A stretch of DNA of 64,000 nucleotides from Sphaerodactylus townsendi (lineage: Eukaryota). The notes beneath the pieces were generated by a model. The model was not told the origin of the DNA. It ran no database searches and worked only from the letters and a program-made list of their open reading frames with translations. Location: contig NC_059432.1 of assembly GCF_021028975.2 (NCBI RefSeq), positions 72,540,001-72,604,000 on the forward strand, written 5' to 3'. The translations under genes were made by a program, and so were the position numbers. This document shows, piece by piece, positions 27,816-54,859 of the stretch. The stretch's first letter is position 1. Each line of letters begins with the position of its first letter.

Positions 27816-29875
27816 CCGCCCTCCCCCTGAGGGCTCAGGGCGGTTCACAACAGGTTAAAACAAACATTAAAACATAATTTAAATATCAATTATATAAAAA
27901 CAGAACCCATTTTAAAATGTGGATGGCGTCTGACTACTCCCCTCCCCCCCTTGTGCCCACGGGAGGCCAGATGACATGGTAGATGTATTTTTTTTTAACC
28001 AGACTGGCCAAATGCCTGACAGAACAGGTCTGTCTTGCAGGCCCTGTGGAAACGCTGTAAGTCCTGCAAAGGCCCTGCCCCTCGTCGAGGCCAGCCTGAT
28101 CATTTTGGGACCAGGGATCACAAGTAGGGGAGGGGCCTACCAGGGCAATATGGGGAGAGGCGGTCCCTCAGGTATGCAGGTTCGAGACCGCGAACCGCTT
28201 TGAAGGTCAAAACCAACACTTTAAACATAATCCGGAACTCAATCAGCAGCCAGTGCAGATGGTATAGGATCAATGTAATTTGATCCCTGCTCAAACTGCC
28301 AGTAAGCAGCCTGGCTGCTACATTCTGAATGAGTTTTAATTTCCGGATCATGGCCAAAGGCAAGCCCGCGTAGTGCGAGTTGCAGTAGTCTAACCTGGAG
28401 GTGACCGTTGCATGGATCACCGTTGCTAGATCAGAACGGGCCAGTTGCCGCGGATGGTAAAAAGCCATCTGGGCCACCCGGGTGACCTGGGCCTTCAACG
28501 ACAAAGCCGGATCCAGGATCACCCCATGGCTTTTGGCCGATGAGGCAAGCTGAAGCGCCTCACCATGCAGCATAGGCAGGCCAAAGGACTCCGGACACTC
28601 TCCCCAACCCAGCCACAGGACCTCCGTCTTTGTAGGATTTAACTTCAGCCAACTCGCACTCAACCAACCAGCAACAGTGTCTAAACAACGCTGGAGAGCA
28701 TCAAGGGCCAAAGACGGGTGGCCCTCCATCATGAACATGAGCTGTGTGTCATCTGCATATTGATGGCACTGCAGCCCAAAACTCCGGACTAAACCTGCCA
28801 GGGGTGCATGTAGATGTTAAAGAGCATCGGGGAGAGGATCGCCCCCTGCGGCACCCCATAAATCCCCCTGACGCCACCTGCAGTCCCCGGTCTTGGAGAA
28901 ATGAAGTCAGCCAACACAAGGTTGACCCCTGCACTCCAATACCAGTGAGGCGGTGGACCAAAAGGTCATGATCTACCACATTGAACCCTGCAGTGAGATC
29001 TAATAACACCAGCAGGGCCGAACCACCTCTGTCCAAGTGAAGCCGAGTTCGTCCATGATGGCAACCAACACCGTCTCAGTCCCATGACCAGCGCGGAAGC
29101 TGGATTGGAAGGGATCCAATATGTTTGCATCATCCAGGAACCGCTGGAACTGCTCCGCCACTGCTCACTCAATTACCTTACCCAGAAACGGAAGATTAGA
29201 AACTGGGCGGTAATTGGCCGGATCCCGAGGATCTAACAGCGGTCTTTTCAGGAGCGGGCAGACCACTGCCTCTTTAAGTCGACCTGGGAAAACTCCTTGC
29301 TCAAGGGAGTTGTTGACAATATCCAACAGGTGGCTCCATAGCTCCTCCCTGCTAGCTTTCACCAACCAGGAAGGGCATGGGTCAAAAGGACAAGTGGTAG
29401 ATCGTACAGCATCCAGTATCCTGTCCACATCCGTCGGGTCAAGTGGGCTGAAGTGGTCCAAACAAGGACCCAAAGATGGCCAAGGGGCCTCCAGTTCACT
29501 TACTGTGTCAATTGTAGCGGGAAGGGATTGGTGGAGAGGCAGAACTTTGTGTGTGAAGTAGTCCGCAAATGCCTCACAGCTTAATGCCAGTTCATTTCTT
29601 TTAGGACCTATGGATGAGGTTGTAAGTATCTGAATTACATTGAACAATTGTGCCGGGCGCGAACTAGCCGTAGCGATAGTGGAAGCGAAATATGTCCGCT
29701 TCGCATCCTTCACTGCACTCTCATAAGACCTCATAAACAATCTATACAAGTGTCGAAACTCCTCGTCAAGTAACCGCCGCCACCCTCGCTCTAGCCGTCT
29801 CAGATCCCGCTTCATCCTTCTCAGCTCCTCAGTATACCAGGGAGCTGGGTTGGCACGGGTACGGAGAGGGCGCCT
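27816..29875 (-). mobile_element. 5'-truncated L2-clade LINE, ORF2 reverse transcriptase with frameshifts
   Basis: ORF pieces with NYRPVSNLPFLGKVIE, LVLLDLTAGF, QYADDTQL (about 28742-28765), LKLNPTKTE, TSRLDYCNS; L2-type 3' tail at the gap. Confidence 0.93.
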
Positions 29876-31199
29876 ATGGTCCAGTGGCTGCTTTCATTGT
29901 GATACCTGAAGTTCTGGCAGTGTGTTGTGTTGTCCTATCTCTGCCACTATTTCCTCTTTTCTTCCACTGTGGGCAAATCAAGTGGAGTTTGACTCTTTCA
30001 TGCATTGAGAAGGCAAAATCAAAACAAAAAAAACAGCCCTCTCTTGGATGGATCAGGTGGGATCTGAACAACCTTTGAAAGATTCCTGATGCCTTTGGCT
30101 GCCTGTTCCTTGACTAGTGCATACAGCTTGTTGTGCATTCTGTACGCAGATAATGAGTCCAAAGCAACAAGCTTGCAAACCATACTCGCCTTTTAATTGT
30201 CTCCCTTGCCTTTTTGGCACCTGTGGCTACGAAGTGTCTCTGTGTAATAATGAGGTTTGCTGGGACAGTCTTCAAGTTTTCTGCTCCCCCCATGGCCCCC
30301 ACACCACCACCCTGTGACCCATTTACCCTAGCCAGGGGTGGGGTCTGGTGCGGCAGGGCTGGGCAGGGACGGATGCATTGGCCTCCGCCACCCTGGTGTG
30401 GCAGGGGTGTGTGCAGTGGCCTCCATCAGCTCTGGTGGGGTGGGGCTGGGTGAGGCTGCCCCGGCAGTGACCTCTACTGGGCCTGGTGGGGCAAGGCGAG
30501 GGGGAGGAGGAGGGGTGTGGGGGTGATTTTCTGCCCCCCACATGACCCTAATGGTGGCTGCCCGGGGCATCTGTCCCCATTCTGCCCTGCGGAAGCTACG
30601 CCACTGGTTGCCAGTCTTGAAGGGACGTCACAGGAAAGTGCAATGAAGAGGAATACAACCAGCATTTCCAAGAGCGAAGGAAAGAGCCCAAGTGGGGATA
30701 CGCAACCAATATATACCCCCAAATGGGTCCTGAGGTAGTATGAGGTAAGCTTTCAGAAAACCCATACACAAGGAATTGATTACTTTTCTGGGGTTTCAAC
30801 AAAAAGATAGGAGAGCCTTGATGAGTCCTCAGGACCCAAGAAGATGCCTGTACTATTCCCTTTAATACTGTCTGATTGATGGGATGGGTGGAAATAAGGT
30901 AAGACATCCTAAGTATGGGGGAAAGGGATCTTGGAGTCAAACGCTGCACAACTTCTTCCCCAAGATGTTCGCAGGACACCTTATTCTGCTCGAGCCGTCC
31001 TATTTTGAGGATGCAAAATTATCACACACACACCCCTCCAAATCATCTGCAAGTCATCTCCTCTTGCTTTGCAGAGCTCAGAAGATGAGGAGACGTCTTA
31101 TTTTTCCCACCTATTTGTGTCGTGCAGAGTGGACCACTATTGGATTGCCATAAATCAGCTGTGACTTGATGGCACATTATACACATATCACACATGTAG

Positions 31200-34810: not shown

Positions 34811-35828
34811 TATAGTTGGCTTTGGTTGTGGTAGAAGAGCTGGAAGTCATCACAGACTGAAGAAAAGCTTCAGTTATCATGATGGACTGAAACAGGCATG
34901 TGCATTGACCCTAAATAGTAAAACAGTCTAAAATATGAAATATGCACAATAGTAATATAAATAGGGGCCCATATGTGCAAGACCCCAGGCCACACTGCAG
35001 TTGTTGAGTGAAAGCACCAAATTTTAGTAGACAAAGTCTGAAGTCAAATGATGCAGCAGCCTTGCAGAAGCTCAGCAGGTAAAGGTCTGGTCAATGTCTA
35101 CATGGCCTGAAGATCCTACGACATCACCTTGACTTTCATGGGGAAAGGATGGGATGGAAACAGAATGAACTACCCAAAGAGAAAAAGCTAATCTGACAAG
35201 ATAACTGTAATTTAAAAATACATATCTGGTTATGTAGCTATGCTATGTAGACATATAGCGATGGCTCACACTTTGGAATCTTATCTTAACAGCAGTGATT
35301 TTTGTGGCCAGAGAGTGCGTTTGTGTTCCACCCAGTTTTGCCATAAATCTTAGTCAAAACAATGCAAAGTAATCTAGCTGTGTAAGAATCTGAGGAACTG
35401 AAACTTGAATTCCCAGCAATTTTTCCTAGCAGAAGCAGATATTAGTAGATAACGCAGTTATCTCTCCAACTTACAATCTGTTAAGGGCCTTTAAAGGTGG
35501 CCAGTTTTTTAGCACGACATTCATACAGTTATTTCATTGCTACACAGTTCTATCAGTTGTCTACTTTGGGATAATGCAGTCTCCTCTGCAAAAGAATATT
35601 CATGGCTGTGATACTGGGGAAAATTTGATTGTCTAAACACCATGGCTGCTTAGTGACAATTCCCTGTGATGTCATTTGTGGCAGCAGCATAACTTTCCCC
35701 CTTTGCATCATTTACTTGATGTACATCACTCTCTGCCCATGGGGAAAAACATATAGTCACCTTTTTCTTTAAACTTAGCTTTATAGGGGGATAGAACAAT
35801 GGGAGAAAAAGGAGGTGGAAGCAGGAAA

Positions 35829-36410
35829 ATGGCAACGGTAGGGACGACGTCGGTGGCACTAACGACAGCGGCAAGACGAGGCGATGGTGGCAGCAGCAGG
35901 GTGAGGCAGTGCATGACTTCGGTGACTCGGTGGCCTGTGCTTTTGCTGGTGGCGACTCTTAGTCTGTTCCAAGTGTCAGCTATGGAAATCTACACACCAC
36001 CGGAGCTCTCTGTGGAGAATGGGACAGAGGCAAAACTGGAGTGCACGTTCACATCAACAGAAGTGATCAGCAGTGCAGCTTCTGTTGCCTGGAGCTTTCA
36101 AGCAGAGGGAGCACCTTCTCCTGTATCATTCTTTTATTATTCCAATGGAAGGGCATATCCTGGGAAATATATACCATTTAAAAACAGAATCAGCTGGTCT
36201 GGAGATCTTAACAAGAAAGATGCATCTATCAGTATAGCAAACACGCGGTTTCAGGACAGTGGCATTTATATCTGTGATGTGAAGAACCCTCCAGATATAG
36301 TTGTCACTCCAGGAGAAATCAGACTCAGAGTTGTGGAGGAAGATGTTAGTTTCTCTGTATTTGAAATGTTTAGTCTATTAAAAATTTTCCTAAGTGTGTG
36401 CTTTGGATAG
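35829..36410 (+). CDS. Intronless MPZL1 (PZR)-derived retrocopy: signal peptide + Ig-V domain + 22-aa hydrophobic tail (193 aa; in-frame upstream ATG at 35799)
   Basis: Close match to recalled MPZL1 (EIYTP..NGTEAKLEC, WSFQ.EGA, RISWSGDLNKKDASI, YICDVKNPPDIVV.PG.IRL.VVE); no introns; AATAAA at 36468-36473. A copy, not the parent locus, so no symbol is given. Confidence 0.88.
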   Translation: MATVGTTSVALTTAARRGDGGSSRVRQCMTSVTRWPVLLLVATLSLFQVSAMEIYTPPELSVENGTEAKLECTFTSTEVISSAASVAWSFQAEGAPSPVSFFYYSNGRAYPGKYIPFKNRISWSGDLNKKDASISIANTRFQDSGIYICDVKNPPDIVVTPGEIRLRVVEEDVSFSVFEMFSLLKIFLSVCFG

Positions 36411-40757: not shown

Positions 40758-41024
<267 letters not shown>

Positions 41025-42730
41025 CTATGGGTTGAAGAATAATTCCTTCAGGGAGCAAAAATTTTGTAAGCAGGGGCAGGCATCCTCAATAGAATTTTCA
41101 GCAGCTGATCAGTCTTGCTGATATAAGCTAAGACTCTGGGGGCAAACATATGAGCATAGTAAAATGTGAAGCAGAACAACTGGGAATGGCTAATAAAATT
41201 AAAAATTTGGAAACTGAGCTCAAGAAATCTAAAAAAAATCTCTGGAAGAGGCAAAGACTCCAAAAGTTTTGACTGTTATGAAAAAATAGGGCAAAGTGAG
41301 CCAGAATGCTGTCAAGAAATGTAGTTGTATCAGAGTAATCTCATGAAAACATTAGACTGGGACATACACATCTTATTTTGCTACATAATATAGCTCAGAT
41401 AAGCAAGTCAATGAAGGTACAGATAATGTTCTAAAACAACTTTTGCAGGAACTCTGACCCAAAATTAATGGATTAATTGTTTTGATACCACAAATAAATT
41501 GAAAAATCATAAAGCCTTCAGTAGGGATGTTTACCCAGTTGACTTCCAAATACCAAATGAATGCCCTAATACCCCCTATCAAGTTGTTGAACTCAGTCTT
41601 ACAAATAACAGGCATTCCAGAAAATGGAAAGAGGCAGAGGCAGAGGCCAATTACACACAGGTGTTTGCTGCATGGTGGAGGTGAGATTTCTTGTATGGAT
41701 GTATTTCCTCTACCCACGCTTTCACTTTCCACACTCTCCATGGCAAGCAAATCCACTTATAGCACGATTTTAATTTTGCTTCACGGCCAAAGCAGGACAG
41801 ATTTGCCATTGGGTTCAGCTTTGCCCAGACCTGTTCCTTCCATCTGCAGTCAGCCTGCCTAGTCTTACCCGCTCCCCACGCCCTCACACTGCTTTGCACC
41901 CTTCCCCCTCACCCTCCTCCCTGCTGCCAACTACTTCCCGCTTCTTGTCCTGCCCTGTCATTTCTGTTACCCATGGCCTCCCCACTCCTGCATATCTTTT
42001 AAATCTTTAGGTTAAAGAAAGAATAACCATATTGATAAGACTGATAAATCGATACTAACACTTTAAAAAGTAAAAATAATAAGACTAGACAAGCAGTCCA
42101 AACACCCGATTTGCTCCGGCATTGGTCAACAAACTGGGACGTCTCCAGCCTTGTAATTTTATACTCAAGCAATCAGTGATTCCAGACCACACCGGGAAAG
42201 CCCGTCGGTCTTGATGCATGGGTTTACAACACATCAAGAGACGGACAATTTCCAGCATAAAAGATAATCAGTGTTTGGGCAAAGTGTACAGATGCCATAT
42301 TCAAGACTTTTCACCTTTTTTAAACTTTTTGTCTGTTGATATATTAGATCTATGAATAGATTGATAGATTGATGTATCAATCTATTGATAAGATGAAAGA
42401 TAAAAATTAAAGATTATGTTAAAAATTGAAGCATGCATGTGTGATACACAACTCATGTGTGATACACAACAATGCATGTGTGATACACAACAAAACATCA
42501 CACACAGACCCCGGACACAAACAAAAAGCTATCTGATCAGTAATGCCTGCCCCACTGCAAACAGGGCAGTGGGCAATAATGCTGAACATGCCCCGAAACA
42601 AAGACTCCCCAGCCAATTCTCTTTGAGGTTGCAGGAACCTTGCTGGACGTAATTGGCCATAAGCCTCCAATCTTGTTCCTGAATCAACATACAAAATCTT
42701 TACTTCACTATGGGCAACCCTCAAAAAACC

Positions 42731-45959: not shown

Positions 45960-47228
45960 GCATGAACAACCTGCCTCATTCATCATTGTGAAGAGTTCCT
46001 TCAGTTCCAGGGTGGTGGGAGCTGGGGGTAATAGCCCCTCGTCCACTCCAAACCGCGTGGCTATCATTATTGGGGGGGGGGGAATGTTCCTGTTTTCCCT
46101 GACAATCCTTTTGAGCTGCTCATAGAAGGGTCAGGTATCCCTGTTGTGTTGCACAACACGCTTTTATTCTCACTGCTGTATCTTGGTCTTGATGCGGCAT
46201 TCGATGGCAGTCCTGCAGGGACTCCAACTCATCTCCGCAGCCACCTTCTTGAAAACATCAATGTTGCTATGGCTCTTGGTAAGGGCACGCTGGACCACCT
46301 GTTTGCCCCAGATCCCAATCAAGTCCCTGGTTTCTGCCTCCTTCCAGGCGACACCTCTCCCTGTTCCCTTGGCAGAGCTCCTGCCATAGACCCCGACAAC
46401 AGCATCACCACTTGTGCCAGCCATAGTCATCCATACATGCCAATCACTCAAAACCACACCTGTAGTGCTGCTGACCCCTCCTTAATACTGAACTCAAACT
46501 GGCTGTTTCCCACTCAAGGTCCATTTTGGGCCGTTGCCGCCCCCATAAAAAGGCTGAGCTTCTGACAGGTTGACCCACAGCGAGTGAGGGGGGGAAGCCC
46601 CCCTTTTCCAGTTCTGGATAGGGCTCAACATGGCAAGTGGCAGCAAAAAACAACGGGGCACAGCATCACTTCACATTCCCACTCATGTTCTCACATTCTT
46701 GTGGAAAACAAGAGACTCCCACCATGATATGCCCACTAACATTCAGTCAAAAGTGCACATCTCCCTAGCTATGCTGTCCGAACAACCAGTACATGTGCAG
46801 AAAAGAAAATGGGGACATTTTAGGACTCCACTCCTGATTAAACCAGGCAAAATGGTGCCCGGTTGATACCATGAGCAGAAAACGTGCTTGGAGGCTGCAA
46901 TGGTCGGCGGCTCAGCAGAGTTGAAAACTGACGACGCATAGTGATGTCAGGTAGGGGAGATCGAGGGGAGCAGAGTGGTCAGAGGGAGATTAATGAAAAA
47001 ATAAAACTGAGTTCTCTGCTTCAAAACGTCGTGGTGTTTGCACAGTAGTGGGTTCACTGCAGGATTTTTGAAAAGTGTCGCCAAATTGGTGATTTTTGAA
47101 AATCCTGGGATGAGGGAAATATCATGGGACAAATCTGATTTTGGACCAGGAACCATGTGAATGTCTTGGCCAGATCAGGATATTTCCCTTGCTCAACCCA
47201 GGATATTTGGACCGTGCAGAAACGACCC
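45960..47228 (-). mobile_element. Decayed PIF/Harbinger transposon fragment carrying a Myb/SANT (trihelix) ORF remnant
   Basis: RGVAWKEAETRDLIGIWG...RTAIECRIKTK then stops, later PFYEQL; terminus ...gtgcagaaacgaccc at 47228; left boundary approximate. Confidence 0.75.
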
Positions 47229-49309: not shown

Positions 49310-50969
49310 TCAGTCTGTAGGTTTTCCTGTCTTATGAGGAAACTGTTGTCTGTACAAGTGTGACACATACTGGACCTCAGGCATGATCATCCTTCGGCAG
49401 ATTTTTATTGTCATATTGTCTAAATCTTGTTTGAGATTGTAGCCCAAGATATTGGCAACCCCTGATTGATAGGGTTTCAATGTTTTGTCTTTAATTTTGC
49501 TTTTATCAACTGCTGTTTTCTCAAAAAGGGCATGTTTCCATCAGTTCCTGCTGCCTCTTCTGCAGAAGTTTCACTTCCTGGTACAAGGATGGTAGGCTCA
49601 TCATGTTATGAATCTTAATCCAAAAGGTATTGTTGAAATGTTTGTAAAGTTTCCAATCAAGTGCACACCAGTCTTTCACCTTTTCCTGACTCTCTGGGCC
49701 ACTCCCCACTCACCATAAGCCACGGGGTCACCTCTTTAAAAGACACGAGGAGGATGGACGTTCCCCACATCACCAGCGCCCACTGCGCAGCTGCCCTTAA
49801 TTTGCCGCTCTCCCACCTCCTTGTCGCGCGGCAAATTAGGTCCTCTGAAAAGAGCAACATTTTCAAAAACCCCGCAGGTGCCGCAGGGGGGTGGGGAACC
49901 TCGGCTGTTTACGCAGGCGGCTGCCGATTTTGTGCTCTGGCCAGCTGGGCAGCTTCCGGCCAATCAGGAAACAAGGAACCCCATTTGCTGTTGTTTAGGG
50001 AGGGTGTCCTGTCAGAAAGTGCTTTCCCGGAAACTGAGACGTTATTGCGCAACAAGGCGATGCGCAGCGACATTGCTCTTTTTTGCTGCTTTTTTTTTGC
50101 TCGAGCTCCACTGTTTTGCGAAAGCTTGGCGAAAGTGCCGCTGAAGCCGCGGGGTTGTCGGGCGGTGTAGAACCCGGAAACTGATAATTTACTTTCATTT
50201 TTCTGCCTCAAGCAATTTGCAACAGGTAGTGACGTCAGCATGTGCAGGCGATCTCTAAAAAACAATGCGTTCAGGCTTATCCAAAGCCGAACTTTTCGGG
50301 TCAGCCAATCAAAATGGAGCCCCGCCTTCGGCTGGCTGCAACTCCCACGTGTAAATGGTGCACACGCGTGCCAGCCAATCAGAACGCTCGATTGCCTCTT
50401 TGACTCTTGATGTGGAACCCCGCGCTATTTCCTGAATGGAAAATGAGTGGGGAACAAATGTCTCCGTTGTCAAAAACCACGGAGGCTTTTCTATGAGGGG
50501 TCACTGCTGGGTTGCACTCAGACGAGGTAAGTGGGGAGTGGCCCTCTGGAGTCAAGGTCTGAACACTTTCTAGGCTCCTGGTGTTCAGCTTGAAATAAAC
50601 CACACCATCCAAATCCCAACACAAAGTGTTCTGCAGAAGGATCATGGACTCATCGAAGTAATTAGCAATCAGTATCAGATGGAAATTCTGCTCAATGTTC
50701 TGTATGATGGATTGGACATAGTAATCGTCATCCTCTGCATTGTTGTCATAGCCAAAGTCAAACCACATGTTGTTCCTTGCGTGGATGTTATAGATCTTTA
50801 CATTCAGATCGTAGTATGTCCATGGAGACGACAGAAATTCATTCACATTGCTGGAGTTTTTAAACGCTGGTGAATAGTTTTTGTAATAAACGTAGGAGGA
50901 TTCCAGCGATAAAATTGGATCCCTCAGGATAGTAAAATAGAAGGTATCTTTTGGCATTACCTTCCTTAC
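49310..50969 (-). pseudogene. GAL3ST2: GAL3ST2 last exon, interrupted by a MITE and a frameshift
   Basis: VRKVMPKDTFYFTILRDP...RNNMWFDFG...YFDES...KLN; resumes after the insert with ESQEKVKDWCALDWKLYKHFN; frameshift near 49522-49530; then KPYQSGVANILGYNL...CRRMIMPEVQY; native stop 49310-49312. Confidence 0.92.
49696..50544. mobile_element. 849-bp CpG-rich PIF/Harbinger-type MITE inside the GAL3ST2 coding exon
   Basis: 19-bp TIR GGGCCACTCCCCACT(C/T)ACC (18/19 match), 3-bp TSD TCT; removing the element plus one TSD restores in-frame LTPESQEK. Confidence 0.93.
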
Positions 50970-52689
50970 CTGTTTAATAAAAGACAGACAAATGTGAGCA
51001 TTGTCTTAGCTGTTACTTGGCTTTTCAAAATATTGGTTTAGGCTTTGGAACCAGTAAAATTATGGAAGGCTTCTCTCTGGGAATTTAACTTACAGTTTCA
51101 AGAGAGATAAGGAATGGAATGGAGTCAAACACTGGTGCAGATGGGGGCCAGGAGCTTTAAGGCCAGGGAATTTTGTCCTTGCATTCTATCTCATTAGGGC
51201 AAGGAAGAAGTGGGGAGGGGGCTGCTTGATTCTGAGCACATACTGGCTCAAAGTGGTCACGTAATCAGCAACCAGTATCAGCTGCTGGCAGTTTGGCATA
51301 AAGCAAGATCCTTTGTTCTAGTTTGTACCATTTGGTCAACCCCTTGTGGATTACTGTCCTTTGGGTCATCCTTCTGTCTGGGTTGTGCCTTACATGGCCA
51401 GAATATCTGCTCTTGGACTTTGCACTTTCAAAAGTTTAGCTGGATTCTATGTTTCAGTCTGGTCAGGCAACATCTGGATCAGAGGACCAAAAAGCCTACC
51501 TAAGTATTTTAATTTAGCTAATTATATTTTATTGTTTTCTTCCTTTCCCTTCTATTTGGATACTTTTTGCACATTTATTTTAATAAGCATTATTAACTAT
51601 ACTTCTGTGATGCTGTTTAGGTTTGGGGGCTTCAATCTAAATCCAGTGTCTTGGCATACATCGGCTACAATTACCACAGTAATTGTTTTTGGTGGCTTAT
51701 TATCCTGGGCAGTGAGGATTGACTCCCAATGTTGTGTTTTGTTTTGCCCTAAGCTGTTACTACCACTTGAAAGGTGCGCCAGATGTTCTTGGCATGTCAA
51801 GGCAGACCACAGAGGTCCAGTTTTGTCATCTCCATATAGGGTCAGACATTTTGTAAAGAATTTATTTTTATTGTTTAATTTATATTTGCATGTATTAGCT
51901 GCCCTAGACCACAGTCTCAGGGCAGATTACAATAAAACATGCAACATTAAAATCATGACAACAAAAACACAATTAAACCCAATTTTAAAAAATCACAATA
52001 AAACTCCATTTTAGGAAACACAATAAAACCCCATTCTAAAAACCCAGACACAATCTAAAATCTCACATGAGAAGAAGGGTTGATATACCATAAGAAACTT
52101 GTGCTAAAATGAAGAATGAAATTGTATATAGTGATATCCATTGGTTGAAGTGGACAGAAATGGACAAATTATTGGCAAATGTTTCCTCAATGAACATAAT
52201 TACAACAAAACCTGTTACCCACTATTATTGGCTAAGGTGGTTATATTTTCACAGAAGGCTTAATTAGTACTAGGATAAATGGTTTATGCAGGCCGAACAA
52301 TGTTTAATTGAACAATTTGGTTAACAACAAACCTGAATTTTATTTTCCATGTTTATTTTCCATGTTTAGAATTTATAAATATATAGCCTTACTGAGCCAC
52401 GGGCTGGATTTCATGATCATTTCACAGATTATACAGAGGCAAACCCAAATTTCCCATTAAGGCTCCTGGAATCTCCTCTGATAGCTTACCCTGTGTTAGA
52501 AAACTGCTGGTAGTTTGGCATAAAGCAAGATCCTTTGTCCTAATTTGTACCTTTTGGTCAGTCCTTTTCCTCCTGGCATTGTGACCACTTGAAAGAGAAC
52601 CTAAACCAATGTTTGAATACTGACCCACGGTTTAGAGAACCTTTGCTCTAAACAACAGCAATTATGAAGGATTTCTTTTGTGTTCTTAC

Positions 52690-52960
52690 CCTTGGCAAAT
52701 TAAATCTCAAGTGGTTGCCCATGATGTTGAAGTTTTGGCCAATAGTTTTGAACTCCTCAACAAAAGCTGTTTTGAAGAGGCTAGGATACCCCAGATTGAC
52801 ATGAGGTGCATGCGCAAGGGCCACAGTGAGATTGTGTTTCTCTGAGAAGTTGAAGAGGATATTCAAGACTGTGCTGCTAGCAGTTTTGTGTGTCTTCAGG
52901 TACATGACATTTGTTGTGGGTAGACAGTGTGTGATGTCCTGGGTAAAGGTAGGCCACAGC
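52690..52960 (-). pseudogene. GAL3ST2: GAL3ST2 exon with 5'-PAPS-binding motif ([16 protein letters not shown])
   Basis: 271 nt, AG/GT flanked, phase 2/0, open; located between NEU4 and D2HGDH. Confidence 0.92.
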
Positions 52961-53646: not shown

Positions 53647-54859
53647 AACCTCTTCCCTCCCCTCCCTTGCATGCCACCCCTCCCTCCCCTCCTCCCTCCC
53701 TTCCCTTACATGCCACTCCTCCCTCCCTCCCTCTCCCTCCCTTCCCTCTCCCTTCACTAGGGTGGGTGGGCCATGTCCAGAAGCCGGGCCCCCTCCCTCC
53801 CCTCCCTTGCATGCCACCTCTCACTTCCTCCCTGAACGCATCCGATTTAAATTGGTTCCCCACTTCTACTGTAGCTATTAGAGAAAGTAGACCTACTTGA
53901 TCAACTTTTCATCCATTTGAAGGAATCCTGCTAGGAAAACAAATCCCAGCCAAAAAGAAAGACACATAATTTTTTTTAATACCTGGAATAGAACCAAGAT
54001 ATAGTCAGTATTTTCTAATATGATCATATATTTTAAAATGTTGGAACACAAACTTACATAGATTTTATACCAGCTAACTGATTAAAGATAATGGTTTTCC
54101 CCAAAGAATCCTGGGAATGTAGCTGGCTTCTCCAGCAGAATTTCCTACTGCCTTCCACAGAAAAATAGTTTCAAAGGAGAAAGGAAATAATCATAAACTC
54201 ATCTGTGGCAAACATATGCCTGAGGTTATATTTAAAATAGTCACTGATATGCAGGCCTTAGAATCACCAGGATCCAGGTAGGATCAAGAGTTCTCCAAGA
54301 ATTACAACTGATTTCCAGATTACAGAGATCAGTTGTCCTGGAAGAAATGGCAGATTAAGAAGGCAGAATCTAGAATATCACCAGCCCACTGTACTCTTTC
54401 CCCTCCCCAATCTTCAGCATATCCAAGCCTTCCCTTCCATCAATCTCCAGGAACTTCCCAAGCTGGAGATGGCAACCCTAAATACATTTGAAACAAAATG
54501 GAAGAGATGAAGCCTGAGAAAAGTCATAGACCTTTATATGCAAAGTAGGAAAATAAAACACTAAGATTATTCATTGCAATCCTTTGGAGGGTTACACCCT
54601 TCTAAACCTATTACCACCCAGATCAGTGCATGGACCATGCCAAGGCCTTGAATCTACCAGAGGATTTCTGTGGATGAAAGAATTGTGCCTATGGGATGCC
54701 CCCCCTCACCACCTGCAGCCCCAGATATTCCCTTCCTGTTATTGATGTGTGCTCCTTCATCTCAACTACACATAGATTTTGGTCCTGTGACATTCAGAGA
54801 CAGGAAAAACTAGCCAAAGTATATGCCTCCTTTATGCTTTTTTCATAGCATTAACTCAC

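What the first reader, a model, noticed from the sequence alone, without database searches (positions are those of the whole stretch)
49696..50544. MITE built like a portable promoter: outward-facing splice donors in both TIRs around a motif-rich CpG core
Seen: each TIR contains a consensus donor reading out of the element (GAG|GTAAGT at 50527 on +, ATG|GTGAGT at 49713 on -). The interior is CpG-rich with CRE TGACGTCA (50230), CCAAT boxes (49960, 50305, 50375), E-box CACGTG (50346), CCGGAA ETS sites (50027, 50174) and a GC-box-like motif. Inference: transcripts starting inside could splice to neighbouring genes on either strand. On the - strand the next known acceptor precedes the NEU4 ATG (exon start 40978), so the element could supply an alternative first exon for NEU4 or create GAL3ST2-NEU4 chimeras.
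Basis: partly seen in the sequence, partly recalled or inferred. Interest (0 to 1): 0.7.

Follow-up and report, generated by a model that had tools for sequence, protein, structure and literature searches.

The report
Harbinger mini-transposon inside a broken gene
This is one copy of a young, several-hundred-copy cut-and-paste mini-transposon that interrupts a sulfotransferase gene; its promoter-like motifs match the ends of protein-coding relatives and are likely leftover, methylated transposon promoters, so it is likely ordinary and not a new first exon for NEU4.

Summary
The element is a real 849-bp Harbinger-type MITE: 19-bp TIRs, 3-bp target duplication, 634 exact TIR matches genome-wide. 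It is an internal-deletion derivative: the left ~490 bp and right ~310 bp match the ends of transposase- and Myb-coding elements, upstream of their inward-reading genes. Three CCAAT boxes and the CRE are real family features and likely those genes' promoters. The two + strand ETS sites and the GC box occur only in an insertion-riddled central patch that is likely assembly error. The two donors are one TIR motif seen twice, shared across the lineage and lost in a mobile sub-lineage. CpG transitions run 12.7-fold high, implying germline methylation. A NEU4 chimera would carry five upstream ATGs; a GAL3ST2 read-through stops 665 nt before the junction. Transcription is untested. Ordinary; interest 0.22.

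The parts
49696..50544 (.). Non-autonomous Harbinger-type (PHIS) MITE, 849 bp as assembled; family consensus 798 bp
49693..49695 (+). Left copy of the 3-bp target site duplication (TCT), preceded by C
   Evidence: empty-site contigs skip 852 = 849 + 3 bases
50545..50547 (+). Right copy of the target site duplication (TCT), followed by G
49696..49714 (-). Left TIR; its inner bases read as a 5' splice-site consensus on the - strand (GT at 49713)
50526..50544 (+). Right TIR; the same bases read as a 5' splice-site consensus on the + strand (GT at 50527)
49696..50229 (+). Left arm: homologous (79-86%) to the end of coding Harbinger elements upstream of an inward-reading Myb/SANT gene; holds the CCAAT box at 49959-49966; likely the Myb-gene promoter
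50230..50544 (-). Right arm: homologous (77-82%) to the end upstream of the inward-reading transposase gene; holds CRE 50230-50237, CCAAT boxes 50304-50311 and 50374-50381, E-box 50346-50351; likely the transposase promoter
49915..50290 (.). Patch of about 28 small insertions, nearly all private, likely assembly error; creates CCGGAA at 50027 and 50174 and GGGCGG at 50160
50548..50975 (-). 5' part of the last coding exon of the GAL3ST2-like gene (PF06990); its frame runs into the element and stops at 50379-50381
49313..49695 (-). 3' part of the same exon beyond the element; a one-base frameshift near 49523 splits it into two frames
52690..52960 (-). Preceding coding exon of the GAL3ST2-like gene (PF06990), frame open
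40773..40978 (-).
41863..41980 (-). Candidate native upstream exon end of the sialidase gene (G-rich stretch, donor GT at 41868); untested

Best explanation
The element is a young non-autonomous Harbinger-type transposon made of the two ends of a larger transposase- and Myb-coding element, and its CCAAT/CRE core is likely the pair of inward-facing promoters that served those two genes, now likely methylated and without a role for NEU4. It was likely mobilised in trans by cut-and-paste into a C|NNN|G target and landed in the last coding exon of a GAL3ST2-like gene that is broken in other ways too. The outward 'donors' are part of the lineage's TIR, most likely kept as protein-binding sequence. 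The two + strand ETS sites and the GC box are likely long-read assembly errors.
For: SHOWN. 3-bp TSD in 24 of 30 copies and 40 of 52; flanking C and G in 67 of 80 strand-symmetrised sites each; 634 exact TIR matches, 0 for the reversed control. Empty site in runs X4 and X6. Two full coding relatives with matching TSDs (C14:48086312-48096208, GAG; C3:57274205-57288342, AAT) match the MITE over consensus 1-490 at their left end and about 555-798 at their right end; a third (L115) matches at the CRE, 27 of 28 bases. In them a Myb gene (PF13837, E 1e-17) starts 720 bp inside the left end and the transposase (PF13359) reads inward from the right end, a shared ATG 563-631 bp inside. The right-hand CCAAT pair is kept in all three, a CRE in two. 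CpG transitions 214 of 2955 against 54 of 9460 at other C/G, even across five regions, 0.072-0.083; the window copy outside the patch has 5 of 63 CpG against 2 of 410 other sites changed. 12 of 52 copies carry 8 or more insertion events, 246 of 309 private, against 43 deletions, while 37 carry 2 or fewer; at 50208 and 50275 all contig depth of X3, X4 and X5 lacks the window's extra base. INFERRED: promoter function of the motifs (position and conservation), methylation (decay), silence, error origin of the patch.
Against: CpG decay reports germline methylation over time, not the state in any tissue now; young methylated elements can be derepressed. The direct mobilising parent was not found: the relatives are 14-23% diverged while the copies are about 0.8% from consensus, and only 40 of 152 transposase matches were read as 10-kb stretches. 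The donor-like bases are well kept across the lineage (10 of 11 ends). CCAAT boxes were lost in 2 of 87 instances against 5.7 expected (P=0.07). On the patch: in X1 and X2 (one sample) about one single-copy depth (77.9 and 23.7) does not show the deletion at 50208, which may mean that this base is real in that individual.
Confidence: 0.76

Rival explanations
1. One reading: this copy acts as a promoter and supplies an alternative first exon to NEU4, or makes GAL3ST2-NEU4 chimeras that matter.
For: The transposase-side CCAAT/CRE cluster faces the intact left donor and NEU4 lies on that strand. A promoter-plus-donor cassette does this in bat HelibatN3 (PMC4778049, passages).
Against: CpG decay. 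Five ATGs on the - strand between CRE and donor in the consensus, six in the window copy; two open ORFs that overlap the NEU4 start out of frame. Six AATAAA lie between element and acceptor on that strand. Read-through from GAL3ST2 stops at 50379, 665 nt before the junction, a nonsense-mediated-decay substrate by the usual rule (recalled). Organisms B and D have no element here. A candidate native donor sits 0.9 kb from the acceptor.
Confidence: 0.06
2. The Harbinger lineage keeps outward 5' splice sites in its TIRs under selection (for example U1 binding that helps its own promoters), so internal deletion turns it into a two-way first-exon cassette.
For: G|GTRAG is present in 10 of 11 ends from coding and non-coding relatives; the position that equals donor +3 alternates only between A and G, and six right-type ends read AG|GT.
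Against: The outer TIR is as invariant (12 of 19 positions fixed) and positions 4, 6 and 10 vary by transitions in the same way. The 11 ends are related and were found partly through this motif. A sub-lineage without the left GT spread (9 of 100 listed).
Confidence: 0.1
3. A few of the several hundred copies give low-level spliced chimeric transcripts in demethylated cells as a neutral by-product (compatible with the best explanation).
For: 44 of 52 copies keep the left donor and 49 of 52 the right; promoter motifs are kept in most of 29 copies. Harbinger-Snek insertions enter mRNAs in sea kraits (PMC8437027, passages).
Against: Uniform CpG decay; the deletion junction falls at the CRE, so the transposase start site may have been deleted (inferred).
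Confidence: 0.35
4. The divergent centre of the window copy is real DNA (conversion from an unseen relative, or error-prone gap repair), so its ETS sites and GC box exist.
For: Both ETS sites sit in an identical 12-mer (family D10); residual single-copy depth without the deletion at 50208 in X1 and X2.
Against: Best other match to the centre is 84% among 40 scored of 395 candidates; 24 of 28 insertion events are shared with none of 51 other copies; different private patches occur in 11 other copies; contig loose ends at the patch edges continue as the family consensus (table 7; these may come from other copies).
Confidence: 0.12

Closest known systems
PIF/Harbinger (PHIS) transposons and their MITEs (PMC9179366 passages; PMC9392472 passages)
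   Same: TIRs, 3-bp TSD, relatives coding a DDE transposase and a Myb/SANT protein.
   Different: TIR is 19 bp, shorter than the 25-50 bp called usual there; the coding relatives carry two Myb-like frames, one at each side.
NuwaII group of PHIS (PMC4482050, section 8 and passages)
   Same: TIR starts GG and is within 13-46 bp; conserved C before and G after a 3-bp TSD; DDE plus Myb/SANT genes.
   Different: The core is not TNA (6 of 40 TSDs); no tree was built. NuwaII-like flanks, membership not shown.
Bat HelibatN3 promoter-plus-donor cassette (PMC4778049, passages)
   Same: A non-autonomous DNA element holding promoter motifs upstream of a splice donor that faces out of the element.
   Different: HelibatN3 captured a host promoter and its real donor, and splicing was shown. 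Here the motifs are the transposon's own, the donor is TIR sequence, CpGs decay and no splicing is shown.
Harbinger-Snek of sea kraits (PMC8437027, passages)
   Same: Recent reptile Harbinger expansion with short non-autonomous derivatives and insertions into exons.
   Different: Far larger expansion; mRNA contribution was checked with RNA-seq there.
Xenopus hAT/Harbinger/Kolobok MITEs at liver open chromatin (PMC12676858, abstract and outline only)
   Same: Vertebrate MITEs carrying transcription-factor motifs.
   Different: Open chromatin was measured there, and the elements were enhancer-like, not promoters; nothing comparable was measured here.

Membership tests
PIF/Harbinger (PHIS) MITE | Terminal inverted repeats starting GG | tested here: met
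   19-bp TIRs starting GGG
PIF/Harbinger (PHIS) MITE | 3-bp target site duplication | tested here: met
   24 of 30 exact at 3 bp, 0 of 30 at 4 bp; empty site skips 852 bases
PIF/Harbinger (PHIS) MITE | Ends shared with elements coding a DDE_Tnp_4 transposase and a Myb/SANT protein | tested here: met
PIF/Harbinger (PHIS) MITE | Short, non-coding, many near-identical dispersed copies | tested here: met
   798-bp consensus, 0.8% non-CpG divergence in 29 top-scoring copies; 634 TIR matches; the two internal frames scanned have no Pfam match
PIF/Harbinger (PHIS) MITE | Direct autonomous parent, near-identical at the ends | tested here: inconclusive
   closest relatives 77-86% identical; 40 of 152 transposase matches and 30 loci examined
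NuwaII group | C before and G after the TSD | tested here: met
   67 of 80 at each side, strand-symmetrised
NuwaII group | TNA core of the target | tested here: not met
   6 of 40 TSDs are TNA
NuwaII group | Transposase falls in the Nuwa clade | not tested
   no reference transposases were fetched and no tree was built
NuwaI group | CWG target duplication | tested here: not met
   4 of 40
Mobile promoter-plus-donor cassette (HelibatN3-like) | Promoter motifs upstream of an outward donor within the mobile unit | tested here: met
Mobile promoter-plus-donor cassette (HelibatN3-like) | Promoter and donor captured from a host gene | tested here: not met
   both arms are transposon ends
Mobile promoter-plus-donor cassette (HelibatN3-like) | Transcription starts inside and splices to host exons | not testable with these tools
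   needs RNA data of this organism
CpG-island promoter | GC above 50% and CpG o/e above 0.6 | tested here: met
   GC 54%, o/e 0.78-0.89
CpG-island promoter | CpGs protected from methylation-driven decay | tested here: not met
   12.7-fold excess of CpG transitions, even along the element

The most novel reading that the evidence does not exclude
This Harbinger lineage carries a working 5' splice site in each TIR, kept by selection. Deleting the interior brings its two convergent promoters (Myb side and transposase side) within about 500 bases of the opposite TIR donor, so each MITE copy is a ready-made first exon in both directions. Several hundred young copies, polymorphic between close relatives, would then be a natural test set for promoter donation by a cut-and-paste transposon in a reptile.
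Probability: 0.1. Interest if true: 0.65.

Novelty: new member of a known kind. Interest (0 to 1): 0.22.

Why it matters
As it stands it is an ordinary young MITE in a decaying gene copy. Its value is explanatory: it shows where a promoter-like MITE core comes from (the parent's two terminal promoters joined by deletion) and warns that 12 of 52 copies of this repeat examined are likely garbled in this assembly, which creates false motifs. If the TIR donors proved to be used, it would be a cut-and-paste counterpart of the bat Helitron promoter cassette, working in both orientations and testable by comparing close relatives with and without each insertion.

Tried and rejected
Cover of the central patch: at 95% likeness X2 had no depth in 3 of 30 bins (49971-50171), X3 and X4 in 2 (50038-50171), and no long single-copy piece of the centre was among those listed; the tool filters records and cuts its table, so these holes prove nothing and are not counted as evidence. 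X6 had almost no cover over the element at 85%, likewise not counted. Junction contigs of X1, X2, X3 and X5 reach only 23-26 bases into the element, short of the 31-base bridging rule, so presence of the insertion in those runs is suggested, not shown. A TIR-plus-TSD scan of 40 transposase stretches gave only chance-like pairs; the relatives were found by BLAST instead. The 2,044-bp copy L081 holds an unrelated 1.2-kb insert with no match among fetched loci. Searching for the GAL3ST2-like transmembrane exon with the paralogue's exon gave no significant match; a hydrophobic stretch near 53,900-53,980 is a candidate I did not confirm. A crude acceptor scan was not trusted. Donor strength was judged by match to the consensus only; no trained model was available. 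Literature searches listed no paper on splice donors in Harbinger TIRs; the library lacks most subscription journals and I read only listings for most hits. Look-ups of earlier findings by relatives and by words returned nothing.

Full report
1. Observation. The element and all listed motifs are at the stated places in the assembled window. The TIRs are 19 bp, 49696-49714 and 50526-50544. Because the donor-like bases lie inside the TIR, the two outward donors are one motif seen on both strands. GGTRAGT occurs 12 times in the window's two strands.

2. It is a young Harbinger-type MITE. A search of the own genome G000 (1.81 Gb) scored 40 of 964 candidates, 39 besides the window's own; 30 were fetched. 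They are 787-806 bp with the same ends; 24 of 30 have an exact 3-bp TSD, none a 4-bp one. The exact TIR occurs 634 times, the reversed control never, so there are roughly 300 or more elements (inferred). The 29 other copies differ from their 798-bp consensus by 0.8% at non-CpG sites; they were picked for similarity, so this is a lower bound. Targets have C before and G after the TSD in 67 of 80 symmetrised sites.

3. Where it landed. The - strand frame 51005-50379 matches PF06990 (E 8e-54), runs into the element and stops 55 codons inside. The rest of the exon resumes beyond the left TIR and aligns with an open paralogous exon about 200 kb away (L103). One contig of X4 (organism B) and one of X6 (organism D) join 49691 to 50544, the empty site. 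The gene has further lesions: the window has one extra base near 49523 that X4 lacks, and X4 has its own 4-base deletion at 50666. Three lesions in one exon on two branches whose flanks differ by under 1% suggest a gene copy already released from selection (inferred).

4. Where the motif core comes from. Of 152 DDE_Tnp_4 matches I read 40 as 10-kb stretches. Three end in sequence 77-82% identical to the MITE's right 100-250 bp, down to the TIR. Extending them gave left ends: two full elements with matching TSDs, 9,897 bp on C14 and 14,138 bp on C3. The C14 left end matches consensus 1-490 at 81-86%. A Myb/SANT gene (PF13837) starts 720 bp inside that end and reads inward; the transposase (PF13359) reads inward from the right end, with a shared ATG 563-631 bp inside, followed by a second Myb frame in the C3 and C4 elements. 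The right CCAAT pair is present in all three relatives and a CRE in two. So the MITE is the left ~490 bp joined at the CRE to the right ~310 bp (shown), and its core is most simply two convergent promoters of the parent's genes (inferred from position, conservation and the usual place of CCAAT boxes, recalled). These relatives are not the direct parent, which was not found.

5. Which motifs are real. Three GCCAATCA boxes are far above shuffles and kept in 27 of 29 copies; the CRE in 24 of 29; at least one CACGTG in 27 of 29, though that is not above chance. The + strand CCGGAA sites and GGGCGG are not in the consensus. They lie in 49915-50290, where the window has 28 insertion events, 24 shared with none of 51 other copies, and no better than 84% identity to any scored copy. 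Twelve of 52 copies have such patches in different places, with 309 insertions (246 private) to 43 deletions, while 37 have two or fewer. Contigs of X3, X4 and X5 lack the extra bases at 50208 and 50275 in all their depth. This pattern fits noisy long-read sequence inside repeats (inferred; about 85-90%). Against it, X1 and X2 keep about one single-copy depth without the 50208 deletion, and two ETS sites share a 12-mer.

6. Is it active? CpG sites show 214 transitions in 2955 against 54 in 9460 other C/G sites, 12.7-fold, evenly along the element in 36 clean copies. The window copy's clean arms show the same (5 of 63 against 2 of 410). CRE loss equals the unprotected expectation; CCAAT loss is lower than expected but not significantly. 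The family is therefore methylated in the germline (inferred); it is CpG-rich because it is young. This does not exclude activity in demethylated cells.

7. The donors. G|GTRAG is in 10 of 11 TIRs across the lineage, so it predates the MITE. The outer TIR is equally fixed. Among the first 100 of 182 left ends listed, 85 keep the full motif, 12 have lost the GT and 3 are weakened; 9 share one change, which points to a donor-less sub-lineage that still moved. Binding of the Myb-like protein to Harbinger TIRs is described in PMC9179366 (passage), the simplest reason for conservation. Selection for splicing is not excluded and is the novel case.

8. The NEU4 products. A transcript from the CRE to the left donor holds five ATGs in the consensus; the last is the ATG at the donor itself, and it and one other open frames that overlap the NEU4 start out of frame. 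The 8.7-kb intron would cross the remainder of the GAL3ST2-like exon and six AATAAA. A GAL3ST2 read-through stops 665 nt before the junction, so it gives no fusion protein and would likely be degraded (rule recalled). On the + strand I found no annotated gene to the right within the window: the Pfam-matched frames there are on the - strand.

9. Comparison. It is a member of the PHIS/Harbinger MITEs. It has NuwaII-like flanks but not the TNA core (6 of 40), so I do not file it as NuwaII (PMC4482050, section 8 and passages). In layout it resembles HelibatN3, where promoter and donor are host-derived and splicing was shown (PMC4778049, passages). TE promoter hijacking in general is reviewed in PMC13690279 (passages). 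PMC6446368 and the gap-closing papers were seen as listings only. No supplements were read.

10. Verdict. Real element, partly real motifs, ordinary origin; new member of a known kind. Best explanation 0.76; NEU4 first-exon role 0.06; selected TIR donors 0.10, worth 0.65 if true. Interest 0.22.

Noticed in passing
window 46104-46424 (-): Broken Myb/SANT frame (PF13837), 46% identical to the left Myb gene of the C14 element: an older Harbinger remnant between the MITE and the sialidase gene; 76% match over 1.3 kb to L152.
   Followed up: partly
window 49313-52960 (-) and G000:C8:72388746: The GAL3ST2-like copy is broken differently in organism A (MITE, one extra base near 49523) and organism B (4-base deletion at 50666), while a paralogue about 200 kb away has an open last exon. 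The contig of organism D shows no gap in 50544-51003. Possible recent pseudogenisation.
   Followed up: partly
L081-L113 and other family copies: 12 of 52 copies carry patches of private small insertions; repeat interiors in this assembly are likely unreliable for motif or frame reading.
   Followed up: partly
L094:8531-9518, L110, L082:711-1826: Sister non-coding families with the same TIR: a 988-bp element with 31-bp TIRs and three CCAAT boxes (72% at the ends), and a 1,116-bp element with a different GC-rich interior.
   Followed up: partly
L156:7813-10000 with L123; L115; L116: The coding relatives are long (9.9-16 kb) and appear to carry two Myb-like genes, one convergent and one in tandem with the transposase, unlike the usual two-gene layout.
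   Followed up: partly
window 35787-36410 (+): Single open frame with a signal-like N-terminus joined to a whole V-set domain; may be a processed copy of an MPZ-like gene (name recalled).
   Followed up: no
window 51282-51345 and 52504-52567: 64-nt direct repeat (89%) within the GAL3ST2-like intron, part of a common repeat by contig depth.
   Followed up: no
window 28118-29893 (-): Reverse-transcriptase-like frames of a LINE fragment (seen; family not tested).
   Followed up: no
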